Positions 2,378 through 56,252 of a DNA stretch of 56,252 nt are shown here, in pieces. Source of the DNA: Puniceicoccales bacterium (GTDB taxonomy: Bacteria; Verrucomicrobiota; Verrucomicrobiia; Opitutales; LL51); NCBI GenBank assembly GCA_031255715.1, contig JAIRRZ010000009.1, forward strand, positions 1-56,252. The letters run 5' to 3'. Under the pieces are notes generated by a model, which saw nothing but the letters and a program-made list of their open reading frames with translations, ran no database searches and was not told the origin of the DNA. Within the stretch, counting starts at the first letter, position 1, and each line of letters opens with the position of its first letter. Position numbers and translations under genes: made by a program.

Positions 2378-3565
2378 TTAGGTACCGGTTTTTTCTACTT
2401 CTGTTTGCTGTGGAAGACTATTTTGTTTTTTATATTTTGCCTCAATTGCATCAACTTTTTTCTTAGACGTACTAACCCACCTTTTTGCAGGCATCTCATT
2501 AACTTGTTTAACAATTAATGCAAGATCTTGTTCCACATTCTTTGCATTTGAAGGAATTTTAAGATCACCATATCCTCCTTTTGAAATTTTTTCTTCAAAA
2601 GCATCCGCTTTTATCCATACTTCAATCGCCTTTTGTAATTGCGTTACTATTGGAATAACTTTATTTTTGAATCTGAGAGACTCAATTGTATTGAGTGAAT
2701 CGGTCAGAGTTTTGATATCTTGTTCGACGTTTAGAAGACTTTTGCCATCCTTAGAGTTACCATATTTGCCTTCCGAAAATCTTTTGAAAATCGCTTCCGA
2801 GCGTATTATTGTCTTACATTTATAAGCAAATTCACTTAATAACTGACCTTTTCCATCTGGTTTTGATTTCACTGCATTTACAATGTTATCAATATCAGAA
2901 CAAGCTTTTAAAAGATTGGGTGCCTGTGCTCGCTCACCGTATTGTCCACTTAAAAACTCTTGCATAATTCCTTGAATTTGGGCCTGTGCTTTACTCCTTT
3001 CGGCATATGCTTGAATCCACAAACTCAAGGCAGAAGACTGTGTTAATTTTTGATATTGCTGTGCGACGACATCGATTTTTTCGCATATTACTTTTTTATT
3101 GTCCGTAGCAGACGTTTTGCTAACATTGTTTTTCATGTTTGTTAGAATCCCCAATATTTTTATAGCTACTTTAGCCTGAATTGCGGAGATTGTAGTTTCT
3201 GATTGTAAGTTTGAAGGGTAACTTTTCATCACCATATCAACTGCATTGAGCGCTTTATCAATAGCATCGGCAGAATTGGTATCGCCATAATGCCTTTTCC
3301 GGAAGCTATTTACAATGTCCCCGCATTTCATTTTAAGCTCTTTTCTTCGTTCAAGTCCAGAATCCGTACTCTTGGGGTTTTTGTCGTTATTGGTCAATTG
3401 TGGCGGTCGTGCATCCTTTAATGGTCCAGCAACACTTTTTGCCTTTGATTCAAGAGCTCCGCTACGAGAAATCCACTTTTCGGCATTCGCTTGGGTACTT
3501 GGCCCATGACCGGCTTGTAGTGTATTTATCCATAGCAATCCTAGAACAATATTTTTTTTATCCAT
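2378..3565 (-). CDS. Secreted protein with four internal G-x-YG repeats, unknown function
   Basis: N-terminal signal-like MDKKNIVLGLLWINTLQAGHG. Four copies of a ~35-aa unit: F.k.HYGDtnsadaidkALnavd, SGQYGERaqapnLLkacsDIdniv, EGKYGNSkdgkSLLnvEQDIktl, KGGYGDLkipsnAknvEQDLali. Confidence 0.6.
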   Translation of the reverse strand: MDKKNIVLGLLWINTLQAGHGPSTQANAEKWISRSGALESKAKSVAGPLKDARPPQLTNNDKNPKSTDSGLERRKELKMKCGDIVNSFRKRHYGDTNSADAIDKALNAVDMVMKSYPSNLQSETTISAIQAKVAIKILGILTNMKNNVSKTSATDNKKVICEKIDVVAQQYQKLTQSSALSLWIQAYAERSKAQAQIQGIMQEFLSGQYGERAQAPNLLKACSDIDNIVNAVKSKPDGKGQLLSEFAYKCKTIIRSEAIFKRFSEGKYGNSKDGKSLLNVEQDIKTLTDSLNTIESLRFKNKVIPIVTQLQKAIEVWIKADAFEEKISKGGYGDLKIPSNAKNVEQDLALIVKQVNEMPAKRWVSTSKKKVDAIEAKYKKQNSLPQQTEVEKTGT

Positions 3566-54074: not shown

Positions 54075-55982
54075 GTGAAGCAGATTCATTTCCAGCAAAA
54101 TAACCGAAGAATTGCCATTTTAGGAATTTTTTTCCTGTTGGTGTTTCTGTTTTTAGCCTGTGGATTATTTTACCGACAGATTATTCAATATGATTATTTT
54201 TGCCAAAAGGAAAAGCGTCAAAACCAACGACGTATCATTCTTCCTGCTCCTCGCGGTGATATCTACGACCGTAATGGGAACTTGCTTGTCTGTAATAAAC
54301 CTTCCTTTGATTTGCAGCTCTATTTTGATGACATTCGCATTGAAGTCCGCCGAGAATACGCACGTTTGCTAAAAGAATTGCGCACGGAAAAAAAAACAAT
54401 CAACTGTAATTTACTACAAAAACAGGCACGGCAAAATATCGTCGAAAAATATCTCAAAGTAGCCAATACGATCACTGGTCGCAACGTTACCCTCGATACA
54501 AAATCCTTGGAACGGCACTACCGTGAATCGCTTCTTCTTCCCATTACAATTTTATCGGACCTCTCCAGCAAAGAATATATTCGCCTCGTCGACTATTTAC
54601 CTTCCTCATCTCCACTCTATATCGCCACAAATTATTATCGATTTTATCCCTACCAATCGGCAGCATGCCACGTACTAGGCTATGTTGGTTCTGCCATCGA
54701 AACATCCCATGCCAGCTCTTTGAAAACTTTTCAATTCATCGGAAAAACAGGCAAGGCGGGCATTGAACTTTCACAAAATCAAGTTCTGTCCGGCAGCTGC
54801 GGAGAACAAATTTTTTCTGTTGATCCCTCCGGGTTCCGTGCCGAATGTATCCAGGAAAAATACCCTCAAAAAGGCCATGATTGTACTTTAAGCATTGATA
54901 TTAATTTGCAAATAGCCGTAGAACGTGCCCTTGAAAACAAATTTGGTAGTGCCATCGTCCTCGATGTTTATTCCGGTGAAATTCTTGCCATGGCAAGTAA
55001 ACCAGACTACGATGTTAACCTTTTGAATCCCAAAATTACCTCGGAAATTTACAAAAAAATTACAAACAGTGGAGCCTGGCTCAATCGCGCTTTCCAAGGT
55101 GTTTACCCGCCTGCTTCCACATTTAAAATTATTTCAACAATCGCATTTCTACGCCACGGAATATCCTCCTGGGATCGAACCGATAGCATCGAATGTTCCG
55201 GAAAAACAAAAATCGGTACTCGCACTTTTAACTGTGACCACTCCACAGCTCACGGTACCGTATCCCTCCAATCTGCCATTGAAAAAAGTTGTAATGTTTA
55301 CTTTTATCTTCGGAGTCAAATTTGTGGTATCGAAAAAATCGCTGAAGAAGCAAAACATTTCCATCTTGACCAAAAAACGAATATCGAACTTCCTTTTGAA
55401 ACAAATCGTATGACAATTCCTTCTCCTGCTTGGAAAGAAAAAAAAGGCTACGGCAAATGGTTTCCCGGTGATACAGCAAATACATCTATCGGTCAGGGAT
55501 ACGTACTCGTTTCCCCGCTACAAATGGCCTGTTTTACAGCAAGTCTTGCCAAAAATCGCACACAAACTATTCCACATATTTTGCATGACCCGCGACATAG
55601 TCAAAATAATGCAAAAAAGATTGACCTTTCATCCGATAATTATGAAAAACTTTTACAAACACTTCAACGGGTAATCGACTCAGGAACAGGACGTTCAGCC
55701 AGTCTGAATCATGTAACACTAGCGGGTAAAAGTGGTACGGCACAGGTTTGGGAACACGGAAAAAAACGAAATGTGGCGTGGTTTATCGGATTTGCCCCCG
55801 TTGAAAATCCCAAAATTGCTATCGCTATCGCCATCCAGGAACAATCAAAATACGACAATTATTACGGCGGGAAAACAGCTGCTCCCATTGCTCGTCAAAT
55901 TCTAAACTTTTATTTTGAAGAAGAGAAATTGACCAGAGGGCTCCGCCCTCTGGACTCCCGCAAGGAGTCACAAACTCCTTGA
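54075..55982 (+). CDS. mrdA: Penicillin-binding protein 2 (elongation transpeptidase); C-terminal ~16 codons and stop lie in a repeat element
   Basis: GTG start, N-terminal TM, PRGDIYDRNGNLLV, active-site ASTFK, SCN (EKSCNVYF), KSGTAQ. The tail ..RGLRPLDSRKESQTP* is encoded by modules P6-P7. Confidence 0.9.
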   Translation: MKQIHFQQNNRRIAILGIFFLLVFLFLACGLFYRQIIQYDYFCQKEKRQNQRRIILPAPRGDIYDRNGNLLVCNKPSFDLQLYFDDIRIEVRREYARLLKELRTEKKTINCNLLQKQARQNIVEKYLKVANTITGRNVTLDTKSLERHYRESLLLPITILSDLSSKEYIRLVDYLPSSSPLYIATNYYRFYPYQSAACHVLGYVGSAIETSHASSLKTFQFIGKTGKAGIELSQNQVLSGSCGEQIFSVDPSGFRAECIQEKYPQKGHDCTLSIDINLQIAVERALENKFGSAIVLDVYSGEILAMASKPDYDVNLLNPKITSEIYKKITNSGAWLNRAFQGVYPPASTFKIISTIAFLRHGISSWDRTDSIECSGKTKIGTRTFNCDHSTAHGTVSLQSAIEKSCNVYFYLRSQICGIEKIAEEAKHFHLDQKTNIELPFETNRMTIPSPAWKEKKGYGKWFPGDTANTSIGQGYVLVSPLQMACFTASLAKNRTQTIPHILHDPRHSQNNAKKIDLSSDNYEKLLQTLQRVIDSGTGRSASLNHVTLAGKSGTAQVWEHGKKRNVAWFIGFAPVENPKIAIAIAIQEQSKYDNYYGGKTAAPIARQILNFYFEEEKLTRGLRPLDSRKESQTP

Positions 55983-56252
55983 CCTCGATACGCGGCCAAA
56001 ACATGCGAAACTTCGCATGGTTTGGCCGCACAGGTCTTTTTTTAATTAAAATTGTTTTTAATTAAAAATATTAAAGCCCCGCCCGCGGCGAAGCCGCGGG
56101 CAGGGGTCTTAGGACCCCCAGTCGTCCGGCACCACGGGCGCAATCCCGGTCCAGGGGATGGATCCCCTGGCGAGGATTCTAAGGGCGCGCAGCCCTTAGG
56201 GACCCGCGGGCGCCCCCCGCAGGCCGCCCGCCCGGCTGCACGGACGCCATGA
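55934..56252. repeat. GC-rich composite palindromic element, locus E (P6-P7-P1 / AT linker / P2-halfP3-P4-P5 + further GC-rich sequence to window end)
   Basis: cagagggc-tcc-gccctctg (55934-55952), caaggagt-cacaa-actccttg (55961-55981), ggccaaaacatgcgaa-ac-ttcgcatggtttggcc (55994-56027), P2 (56077-56106), P4 (56151-56170), P5 (56179-56199). Confidence 0.9.

What the first reader, a model, noticed from the sequence alone, without database searches (positions are those of the whole stretch)
55934..55982. Repeat element supplies the C-terminal ~16 codons and the stop codon of PBP2
The homologous part of mrdA ends around ..ILNFYFEEEKLT. From 55934 the frame runs through module P6 (cagagggc-tcc-gccctctg) and into P7 (caaggagt-cacaa-actccttg), giving ..RGLRPLDSRKESQTP. 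The TGA stop (55980-55982) lies in the 3' arm of P7. The same DNA in locus B would encode a near-identical peptide (..RGLCPLDPRKEFGLLDL..). The element has therefore replaced or extended the native 3' end of an essential cell-wall gene. This second case of translation of the repeats is independent of dnaE. P1 plus a T7 run (56037-56043) follows and may now act as the gene's terminator, although 7-9 nt separate the stem from the T tract.
Basis: partly seen in the sequence, partly recalled or inferred. Interest (0 to 1): 0.65.

Follow-up and report, generated by a model that had tools for sequence, protein, structure and literature searches.

The report
Repeat hairpins form PBP2's C-terminal tail
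In a small-genome termite-gut bacterium, the last 17 codons and the stop codon of the essential cell-wall enzyme PBP2 come from a GC-rich hairpin repeat lodged against the gene's end, a real but fairly ordinary side effect of a repeat family that habitually sits on top of stop codons.

Summary
mrdA (54075-55982, +) is an intact PBP2 under purifying selection. Homology to all orthologues and to solved MrdA structures ends at K618 (55928). In close relatives the next codon is the stop. Here it is TTG, and the frame runs through repeat hairpins P6 and P7 to a TGA in the 3' arm of P7. This gives the 17-residue tail LTRGLRPLDSRKESQTP.

An independent MAG with 93% protein identity has the same junction and frame, so this is not a sequencing error. 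AlphaFold2 predicts the tail as disordered.

P6 and P7 are the first modules of a ~275-nt multi-hairpin unit (P6-P7-P1-AT spacer-P2-P4-P5-P8). The family covers about 2.2% of this 0.92-Mb Puniceicoccales genome.

The event is not unique. Ten of 619 long ORFs have their stop codon inside family sequence. One is a sugar kinase with an 11-residue P2-encoded tail that its orthologues lack. Another 32 ORFs have an element within 30 nt of the stop.

The exact route could not be resolved: insertion at the stop, or loss of a stop beside an existing copy.

Close precedents exist (Coxiella QMITEs, Rickettsia RPEs). I rate it a new member of a known kind, of modest interest.

The parts
54075..55982 (+). 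mrdA (PBP2) open reading frame, 635 codons plus TGA
   Evidence: ORF list. Pfam PBP_dimer 3e-24 and Transpeptidase 8e-61. Catalytic S348/K351, S405 and K552/G554 are invariant in a 30-sequence alignment. The AlphaFold2 model has mean pLDDT 91.
54075..55928 (+). Ancestral, homologous part of PBP2 (M1-K618)
   Evidence: Close orthologues end NFYF + 4 residues and then stop. Matches to solved MrdA structures end at query residue 618.
55929..55934 (+). Junction codons TTG ACC (L619, T620). TTG occupies the position of the ancestral stop codon. TTGAC is a variant of the TTAGC/TTAAC/CTAGC string that precedes P6 in many copies.
   Evidence: Junction alignment: G000 AAA TTG ACC AGA; G012 AAA TTA GCC AGA; G011 GAA TAA + 12 nt + CAGAGGGC. 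5' flanks of 29 P6 copies. In G012 ligA the junction GCCCTTAG|CCAGAGGGC shows that TTAG is the end of module P8.
55933..55953 (+). Module P6 hairpin (9-bp stem, 3-nt loop). It encodes most of RGLRPLD.
   Evidence: Sequence. About 30 genomic copies. RNA fold.
55961..55981 (+). Module P7 hairpin (8-bp stem, 5-nt loop variant). It encodes KESQTP and the first two bases of the stop.
   Evidence: Sequence. 68-85 genomic copies. Only the 5-nt-loop variant puts TGA in the mrdA frame; the 4-nt-loop variant would give a tail of 32-47 aa.
55980..55982 (+). TGA stop codon of mrdA, supplied by the repeat
   Evidence: stop offset +46 from the C of CAGAGGGC.
55981..56043 (+). Terminator-like structure: basal helix GACCU/AGGUC closing hairpin P1 (55992-56029), followed directly by U7 (56037-56043)
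   Evidence: MFE and centroid fold -33 kcal/mol, z = -7.4. The consensus scan did not call it. No covariation is available, because the left arm is invariant among copies.
56037..56075 (+). AT-rich spacer of the unit (long variant)
   Evidence: The same spacer is present in other copies.
56076..56199 (+). Rest of the same repeat unit: P2 (56076-56107), P4 half, P5 (56150-56170), P8 (56179-56199)
   Evidence: Repeat families D2, D4, D5 and D7. Module order. Full units elsewhere.
56200..56252 (.). Unique GC-rich contig end. It is not family sequence and may be assembly noise.
   Evidence: blastn-short finds no other copy in the genome.

Best explanation
A unit of this genome's ~275-nt multi-hairpin repeat family lies directly against the last conserved codon of mrdA. 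Its order is P6-P7-P1-AT spacer-P2-P4-P5-P8.

The ancestral stop codon, the fifth codon after NFYF, is gone. Its place is taken by TTG (TTA in the sister species). Ribosomes therefore read 17 further codons, through hairpin P6 and most of P7. They stop at a UGA that exists only because this copy has the 5-nt-loop form of P7.

The fusion arose in the common ancestor of this genome and G012, after the split from a lineage whose mrdA 3' flank is empty. This timing is inferred. The fusion has since been tolerated.

The tail is a disordered periplasmic appendage on the last helix of an otherwise strongly conserved, functional PBP2. It is most likely neutral.

The event is a by-product of the family's habit of lying within 0-30 nt of stop codons, in either orientation. 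Its terminal modules carry stop codons in several frames: TGA in P7, TAA and TAG in P8, and TAG after P2. Fusions therefore end quickly.

My odds on the route are about 55% that the unit, with its own TTAG(C) 5' end, was inserted at or recombined onto the stop codon. I give about 35% to a copy that sat 2 nt behind a TAA or TAG stop which then lost the stop by a single-base change. Both routes are inferred, not shown.
For: Shown by tool results:
- Sequence, ORF and stop.
- Family membership of P6 and P7 and the fixed module order.
- Orthologue C-termini: NFYF + KEKEP*, RKKE*, KTKE*, KGKE*, REKE*, KNKK*, NTR*.
- Homology to solved MrdA ends at residue 618.
- G012 has the same junction and frame, and its NCBI record is called PBP2, partial.
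- Purifying selection on mrdA: differences by codon position are 33/21/118 between G000 and G012. Catalytic residues are invariant.
- Tail residues 622-635 have pLDDT below 50 in a model with mean pLDDT 91.
- Survey: 10 of 619 ORFs of at least 150 aa have their stop inside family sequence. Another 8, 14 and 10 ORFs have an element 0-5, 6-15 and 16-30 nt after the stop.
- Second verified case: a sugar kinase ends ..FSCPPAAKPRAGV*, where orthologues end EEILKAARP* and similar.
- Two genes share the P8-encoded tail LRAARP*, and two use the TAA of P8 as their stop.
- 9 of 29 P6-led copies start 5-17 nt after the stop of a co-oriented long ORF, against 2.7% for random intergenic placement, P = 5e-8.
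- The PBP2 tree places (G000, G012) next to L019, which has an empty site.
- TTAG before P6 is the 3' end of P8 and recurs at other copies.
Against: - No reads, transcripts or peptides could be examined.
- The contig ends inside the unit. The distal junction cannot be seen, nor can any displaced old stop, terminator or target-site duplication.
- The junction sequence fits equally well a single TAA-to-TTA substitution in a stop lying 2 nt before P6. An intact stop at that distance exists at C37.
- Only two genomes carry the fusion, so selection on the peptide cannot be measured.
- The low divergence of the element part (1 difference in 40 nt, against 25.8% at four-fold sites) could reflect selection. 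It does not have to reflect neutrality.
Confidence: 0.8

Rival explanations
1. The stop was lost after insertion. The P6-led unit first sat 2 nt behind an intact TAA or TAG stop, as at other genes. A single base change then opened the frame into the element: either TAA to TTA, or a 1-nt insertion turning AAA-TAG-CC into AAA-TTA-GCC.
For: The L codon lies exactly where relatives have their stop. TTA is one substitution from TAA. Intact stops 5-6 nt before CAGAGGGC exist at C37 and at ligA. In G011 and L021, P6 lies 12-25 nt behind an intact mrdA stop. Spacers next to stops change by indels between G000 and G012; at ligA they are 3 nt and 27 nt.
Against: G012's TTAGC is identical to the commonest 5' extension of P6 at unrelated copies. 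It is also the P8/P6 junction. That match is unlikely for a mutated stop followed by two arbitrary bases. The tree puts G011/L021 in a different clade from G000/G012, with empty-site lineages between them. Their elements may therefore be independent insertions.
Confidence: 0.35
2. The arrangement is adaptive. The hairpins inside and just behind the ORF end couple translation termination to mRNA 3'-end formation or stability. For example, a ribosome stopping 9 nt before P1 could modulate the P1-U7 terminator, or the tail peptide itself could serve PBP2.
For: Between G000 and G012 the element part has 1 difference in 40 nt, against 25.8% divergence at four-fold sites of the same gene. P6, P7 and P1 are nearly identical across species. 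P1 with its basal helix and U7 looks like a terminator. From my own knowledge, REP sequences within about 15 nt of a stop codon lower translation in E. coli (Liang, Rudd and Deutscher, Mol Cell 2015; not retrieved here).
Against: Conservation applies to the whole family. Gene conversion or recent spread explains it as well. Relatives do without the tail, and G008/G009 even truncate the protein at NFYF. The tail is predicted to be disordered. Elements also occur in divergent, promoter-side spacers (8 of 37) and in both orientations. There are no expression data.
Confidence: 0.1
3. It is an artefact. A mis-assembly or collapsed repeat joined mrdA to a repeat, or a base-calling indel hides the true stop. 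Alternatively, mrdA is a decaying pseudogene.
For: The assembly is fragmented. Many of its 38 contigs break inside these repeats, and the last 53 nt of this contig look like noise. Reads could not be checked.
Against: The same junction, frame and tail occur in an independent MAG from another sample, with 176 nucleotide differences across the gene. The ORF is intact, the catalytic motifs are conserved, and substitutions concentrate at third codon positions. The junction lies 320 nt inside the contig.
Confidence: 0.03

Closest known systems
Coxiella burnetii QMITE1/QMITE2 (Wachter et al. 2018, PMC5896051)
   Same: These are non-coding structured repeats in a host-associated bacterium. They overlap the 3' ends of functional genes by 1-50 bp (pntAA 42 bp, nagZ 50 bp). 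In one strain they supply the last 33 residues of EnhC, because an indel links the gene to the element. That is the same phenomenon, with the same two possible routes.
   Different: The sequences are unrelated. QMITEs have terminal inverted repeats and direct repeats. The unit here is a fixed chain of eight different hairpins with no TIR or TSD seen. The host phylum also differs (Verrucomicrobiota).
Rickettsia palindromic elements (RPEs)
   Same: They are palindromic repeats that are translated as part of essential proteins and are tolerated as surface loops or appendages. This genome also has an in-frame dnaE case.
   Different: RPEs are typically inserted in frame inside ORFs. They do not usually serve as the C-terminus plus stop. 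There is no sequence relation. The comparison rests on my knowledge of the literature and was not tested here.
REP / BIME elements of Enterobacteria and Pseudomonas, with RAYT transposases
   Same: They are high-copy GC-rich imperfect palindromes arranged in mosaics, mostly just after gene ends and often between convergent genes. REPs close to stop codons affect translation and mRNA decay. A tetranucleotide tag lies next to the stem; here it is a semi-conserved YTAG before P6.
   Different: No Y1/RAYT transposase (PF01797) was found in this genome or in 14 genomes of the genus. The unit is a fixed eight-module chain of about 275 nt, not a set of 20-40-nt REPs.
Correia (CREE) elements of Neisseria and BOX/ERIC elements
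   Same: They are structured intergenic repeats that are co-transcribed with neighbouring genes. They sometimes alter gene ends, terminators or mRNA processing.
   Different: The sequences and architecture differ. Correia elements have TIRs and a TA target duplication. None of this was tested here; the comparison is from memory.

Membership tests
PBP2 / MrdA (class B penicillin-binding protein, elongasome transpeptidase) | N-terminal PBP dimerisation (pedestal) domain plus C-terminal transpeptidase domain | tested here: met
   PF03717 at 3.1e-24 and PF00905 at 8.1e-61. Best PDB matches are MrdA chains 8zpc, 7zg8 and 7kis.
PBP2 / MrdA (class B penicillin-binding protein, elongasome transpeptidase) | Catalytic motifs SxxK, SxN and K(T/S)G are intact | tested here: met
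   S348-T-F-K351, S405-C-N407 and K552-S-G554 are present. They are invariant or nearly invariant in the 30-sequence alignment.
The genome's own ~275-nt multi-hairpin repeat family (P6-P7-P1-spacer-P2-P4-P5-P8) | Sequence identity of the modules to other copies | tested here: met
   The 36-nt P6-linker-P7 string has 0 mismatches to the consensus, with 0 expected by chance. There are 29 oriented P6-P7 copies. blastn coverage is 20.1 kb in 85 intervals.
The genome's own ~275-nt multi-hairpin repeat family (P6-P7-P1-spacer-P2-P4-P5-P8) | Fixed module order, with P6 as the 5'-terminal module | tested here: met
   The copy at 55933-56199 reads P6-P7-P1-spacer-P2-P4(half)-P5-P8, as full units do elsewhere.
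REP/BIME-REPIN elements mobilised by RAYT | A RAYT (Y1 HUH transposase, PF01797) gene in the genome or in close relatives | tested here: not met
   There were 0 matches in the window's own genome and 0 in 14 genomes of the genus. The control genomes were positive.
REP/BIME-REPIN elements mobilised by RAYT | A conserved GTAG/CGTC tetranucleotide tag next to the palindrome | tested here: inconclusive
   Before P6 the bases are T (20/29), A (17/29) or G (7/29), G/A, then C. The common forms are TTAGC, CTAGC, GTAGC, TTAAC and TTGAC. This string is also simply the end of module P8.
MITEs (IS-derived, TIR + TSD) | Terminal inverted repeats and a target-site duplication flanking each copy | tested here: not met
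   The two ends (CCAGAGGGC... and ...GCCCTTAGG) are not inverted copies of each other. Five complete single units show no flanking direct repeat.
Rickettsia palindromic elements | Sequence or structure homology to RPE families | not tested
   No RPE sequences were compared. Only the behaviour (translated repeats in essential genes) is alike.
Intrinsic (Rho-independent) terminator | A GC-rich stem immediately followed by a U-tract on the transcribed strand | tested here: inconclusive
   The fold gives P1 closed by GACCU/AGGUC, flush with U7, at -33 kcal/mol and z = -7.4. The consensus scan finds none on the + strand. No transcript ends are available.

The most novel reading that the evidence does not exclude
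The repeat family may be a 'portable gene end'. On this reading it is an element, without any recognisable transposase, that is preferentially acquired at or within a few bases of stop codons of housekeeping genes. Behind mrdA alone it appears to have been acquired three separate times, in three lineages. Its terminal hairpins are built so that any reading frame entering them soon meets a stop (TAA and TAG in P8, TGA in P7, TAG after P2), followed by a terminator-like P1-U7. The element would then supply stop codon, 3' UTR structure and terminator for dozens of genes in a shrinking genome, and the PBP2 tail would be one visible product.
Probability: 0.15. Interest if true: 0.6.

Novelty: new member of a known kind. 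Interest (0 to 1): 0.3.

Why it matters
The case shows that in a strongly reduced, probably intracellular Verrucomicrobium, non-coding hairpin repeats rewrite the C-termini and stop codons of essential genes. This affects PBP2, a heptose-type sugar kinase and several others, about 1.6% of the long ORFs.

It matters for annotation. These tails are repeat-derived and are not conserved domains.

It also matters for understanding how selfish or structural repeats and deletion pressure shape gene ends in shrinking genomes.

Finally, it offers a natural set of 'repeat-in-ORF' junctions for testing how hairpins near stop codons affect termination and mRNA stability. In kind, however, the phenomenon is already documented in Coxiella, Rickettsia and enterobacteria.

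Tried and rejected
I could not do a pile-up or map a transcript end.
- The look-up of encoding contigs for the exact protein found nothing.
- Two metagenome pattern scans across the junction found nothing.
- I looked in this assembly for the gene downstream of mrdA, to see the far side of the array. In relatives this is agcS, a Na/Ala symporter. It is absent from G000 and from G012, so the distal junction stays unknown.
- The GC-island approach to finding elements was too noisy. The 13-mer P4 pattern with 2 mismatches gives chance hits inside genes such as gyrA, and I discarded those.
- One genome search was wasted on a 50-aa N-terminal fragment of a fast-evolving protein.
- The Rfam E-value search of 55700-56252 gave only sub-threshold chance hits.
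- I considered a single ancient insertion behind mrdA, shared with G011/L021, and judged it unproven. The PBP2 tree interleaves empty-site lineages (L019, L020, G010) with the element-bearing ones, and the backbone is unresolved.
- I considered strict co-orientation of element and gene and rejected it. P8-led (reversed) ends abut stop codons about as often as P6-led ends do.
- I considered exclusion from promoter-side spacers and rejected it. 8 of 37 classifiable intervals lie in divergent spacers. Convergent spacers are about two-fold enriched, at 13 of 37 against 96 of 584 genome-wide.
Full report
**1. What is there**

The window is the whole 56,252-nt contig C36 of a 0.92-Mb, 38-contig assembly. 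Its relatives are termite-gut MAGs labelled Puniceicoccales, phylum Verrucomicrobiota.

The ORF at 54075-55982 (+) encodes 635 aa and ends ...ILNFYFEEEKLTRGLRPLDSRKESQTP. The stop is TGA at 55980-82.

It is a bona fide PBP2:
- Pfam finds PBP_dimer and Transpeptidase.
- The best solved relatives are MrdA chains.
- The SxxK, SxN and KSG motifs are intact and invariant in a 30-sequence alignment.
- Against the sister genome G012, substitutions fall 33/21/118 on codon positions 1/2/3. This is clear purifying selection.

**2. The tail is repeat DNA**

- Positions 55933-55953 are hairpin P6 (CCAGAGGGC-tcc-GCCCTCTGG).
- Positions 55961-55981 are hairpin P7 (CAAGGAGT-cacaa-ACTCCTTG).
- The 36-nt P6-linker-P7 string matches the family consensus without a mismatch. 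No match occurs in 100 shuffles.
- Genome-wide there are about 30 copies of P6, 68-85 of P7, about 42 of P1, about 65 of P2 and about 62 of P5.
- The modules occur in a fixed order: P6-P7-P1-AT spacer-P2-P4-P4-P5-P8. One unit is about 275 nt and units are often tandem. P6 sits at the 5' end of arrays.
- The copy behind mrdA continues in that order to P8 at 56199. Many contigs break in these repeats, and this one ends shortly after P8.
- Family sequence covers 20.1 kb, or 2.2% of the assembly, in 85 intervals.

**3. Where the ancestral protein ends**

Close orthologues end NFYF followed by KEKEP*, RKKE*, KTKE*, KGKE*, REKE*, KNKK* or NTR*. G008 and G009 even stop directly after NFYF. Alignments to solved MrdA structures end at query residue 618.

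The ancestral protein therefore ends at K618 (55928). The codon that is a stop in relatives is TTG here (55929-31) and TTA in G012. The new tail is 17 residues:
- L619 and T620 come from the junction.
- R621-P635 come from P6, the linker and P7.

Orthologues that lack an element behind mrdA (G010, G006, G003, L019, L020) lack the peptide.

**4. Not an artefact**

G012 is an independent MAG from another sample. It has 90.7% nucleotide identity over the gene, with 176 differences. It has the same junction (AAA TTA GCC AGA GGG...) and the same frame, up to its contig end inside P7. NCBI lists it as 'PBP2, partial'.

**5. The tail as protein and as RNA**

An AlphaFold2 model has mean pLDDT 91 and pTM 0.84. 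The last helix runs to about residue 622, and residues 622-635 are coil with pLDDT below 50. The tail is thus a floppy appendage on the periplasmic transpeptidase domain. More distant Opitutae PBP2s carry variable tails of 10-20 aa, and G008/G009 lack even the four residues after NFYF. This end of the protein therefore tolerates change.

As RNA, 55921-56060 folds into P6, P7 and P1 at -60.6 kcal/mol, z = -8.3. Within 55976-56046, P1 is closed by a 5-bp basal helix (GACCU 55981-85 / AGGUC 56032-36) that is flush with U7 at 56037-43. This fold has -33 kcal/mol and z = -7.4. However, the simple terminator scan does not call it, and the basal helix shows no covariation among copies. The terminator role remains an inference.

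The stop codon lies 9 nt before the P1 stem.

**6. Why the tail is short**

Reading into a unit gives tails of 11-88 aa, depending on the frame and on the P7 loop variant. In the mrdA frame, the 5-nt-loop P7 puts TGA in frame after 15 element-encoded codons. The commoner 4-nt-loop form would give 32-47 aa. The 5-nt variant is common elsewhere, so it is not special to mrdA.

**7. One case of a general habit**

- Among 619 ORFs of at least 150 aa, ten have their stop codon inside family sequence. mrdA has the longest overlap, at 50 nt.
- A sugar kinase on C27 (16635-17642, -) ends ...EEILKAATFS-CPPAAKPRAGV*. Its last 11 codons and the TAG come from P2 and its flank. Ten orthologues end EEILKAARP*, EEILGAV* and similar.
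- Two unrelated genes, on C3 and C20, both end LRAARP*. This is read from P8 (CTAAGGGCTGCGCGCCCTTAG). One gene ends LRVP*. Two genes use the TAA of P8 as their stop.
- A further 8, 14 and 10 genes have an element 0-5, 6-15 and 16-30 nt behind the stop.
- 9 of 29 P6-led copies start 5-17 nt after the stop of a co-oriented long ORF. The genes include ligA, leuS, alaS and rpoN. Random intergenic placement gives 2.7%, so P = 5e-8.
- P8-led (reversed) ends do the same at about 11 genes, so orientation is not fixed.
- Convergent spacers are about two-fold enriched, but divergent spacers are not avoided.
- In tandem spacers the element lies within 20 nt of the 3' end in 6 of 16 cases, and that close to a 5' end in 1 of 16. 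This fits tolerance next to stops and intolerance next to promoters. It does not by itself require targeting.

**8. History**

The spacer behind mrdA is normally followed by agcS. Its state differs between lineages:
- Empty in G010, L019, L020 and G006.
- A P6-led array 12 nt (G011) or 25 nt (L021) behind an intact TAA.
- Reversed elements in G008/G009.
- Fused in G000/G012.

agcS is missing from both G000 and G012.

A PBP2 tree groups (G000, G012) with the empty-site L019 (support 89/96). G011 groups with L021, and G008 with the empty-site L020. The backbone is unresolved. The pattern needs either three gains or three clean losses. I lean towards repeated gains.

At ligA the element is at the same place in G000, G012 and G011, but the spacers are 3, 27 and 15 nt. 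G012's extra 27 nt include a P8 remnant ending ...GCCCTTAG|CCAGAGGGC. Two points follow. Junctions next to stops change by indels on this time scale. And the TTAG(C) that precedes P6 in many copies, including G012's mrdA junction, is element sequence.

This favours the view that the element's own 5' end abuts codon K618 and physically replaced the stop. I give that about 55%. The alternative is a TAA-to-TTA change in a stop 2 nt before P6, at about 35%. I could not decide between them, because the distal junction lies beyond the contig end.

**9. Conservation**

Between G000 and G012 the element-derived 40 nt show one difference, in the P7 loop. Four-fold degenerate sites of the same gene differ at 63 of 244, or 25.8%. 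By my own calculation, the binomial probability of at most 1 difference in 40 is about 1e-4. P6, P7 and P1 are also near-identical across species. This conservation is family-wide. It may come from selection on the hairpins, from gene conversion or from recent spread. It says nothing specific about the peptide.

**10. Comparison with known systems**

The closest documented parallel is Coxiella burnetii. There, QMITE copies overlap the 3' ends of functional genes by 1-50 bp, and an indel links enhC to a QMITE2 that supplies 33 C-terminal residues (PMC5896051).

Rickettsia RPEs, which are translated inside essential proteins, and REP/BIME elements, which lie behind stop codons, behave similarly. 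That statement rests on my own knowledge.

Membership in REP/RAYT systems is not supported. No Y1 transposase was found in this genome or in 14 genomes of the genus. MITE features (TIR, TSD) are not seen. No Rfam family reaches its threshold.

**11. Verdict**

The observation and the main interpretation hold. The finding is a clean, well-supported example of a known kind of event. It occurs in a new repeat family and a new phylum, and it affects an essential gene.

Earlier notes of this scan had already described the family and its position behind genes. I re-derived those points independently here.

Interest is modest at 0.3. The more unusual reading is a stop-codon-seeking 'portable gene end' element. 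I give that about 15%.

Noticed in passing
genome contig C27:16527-16668 (not in the window): A single 142-nt partial unit (P8-P5-P4-P4-P2) fills the whole spacer between two convergent genes, and both stop codons lie inside it. The + gene stops at the TAA of P8. The - gene, a sugar kinase, takes its last 11 codons and its TAG from P2.
   Followed up: yes
genome contigs C3:4602-6812(-) and C20:10-1071(-): Two unrelated genes end with the identical repeat-encoded tail LRAARP*, read from module P8 (CTAAGGGCTGCGCGCCCTTAG). P8 carries TAA at one end and TAG at the other.
   Followed up: partly
window 55981-56043: P1 is closed by a 5-bp basal helix (GACCU/AGGUC) flush with U7. This gives a terminator-like fold that overlaps the mrdA stop codon. 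On the minus strand, P2 followed by CTTTAATATT is called terminator-like by the scan. The P1-spacer-P2 core may therefore act as a two-way terminator.
   Followed up: partly
downstream of window 56252; relatives L005, L019, L020: The Na/Ala symporter gene (agcS) that follows mrdA in relatives is absent from both this assembly and G012. In G006 it is a fragment with a stop. This suggests gene loss at this locus in the lineage that carries the mrdA-repeat fusion.
   Followed up: partly
L003/L004 (G008, G009) mrdA 3' end: In these two species mrdA has a TAG directly after NFYF, followed in frame by GAA AAA GAA TAA. A nonsense change thus removed the last four residues, which shows that the extreme C-terminus is dispensable.
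   Followed up: no
L022/L023/L024 (ligA 3' ends of G000, G012, G011): The P6-led element sits behind ligA in all three species, but the stop-to-P6 spacer is 3, 27 and 15 nt. G012 keeps a P8 remnant that G000 lacks. The junctions next to stop codons evolve by small indels.
   Followed up: partly
window 56200-56252: The last 53 nt of the contig are very GC-rich and unique in the genome, and they do not continue the repeat unit. Several other contig ends in this assembly are poly-G/C-like. This is probably assembly noise.
   Followed up: partly
L005 about 3400-3440 and L006 (G010, G011), distal part of the mrdA-agcS spacer: A native small hairpin followed by TATTTTTAT lies just before a conserved TTGACA-containing stretch upstream of agcS. 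The hairpin is CCACCG...CGGTGG in G010 and CCTCCA...TGGAGG in G011. It is likely the original mrdA terminator plus the agcS promoter. In G011 the repeat array was inserted between the stop codon and this hairpin.
   Followed up: no
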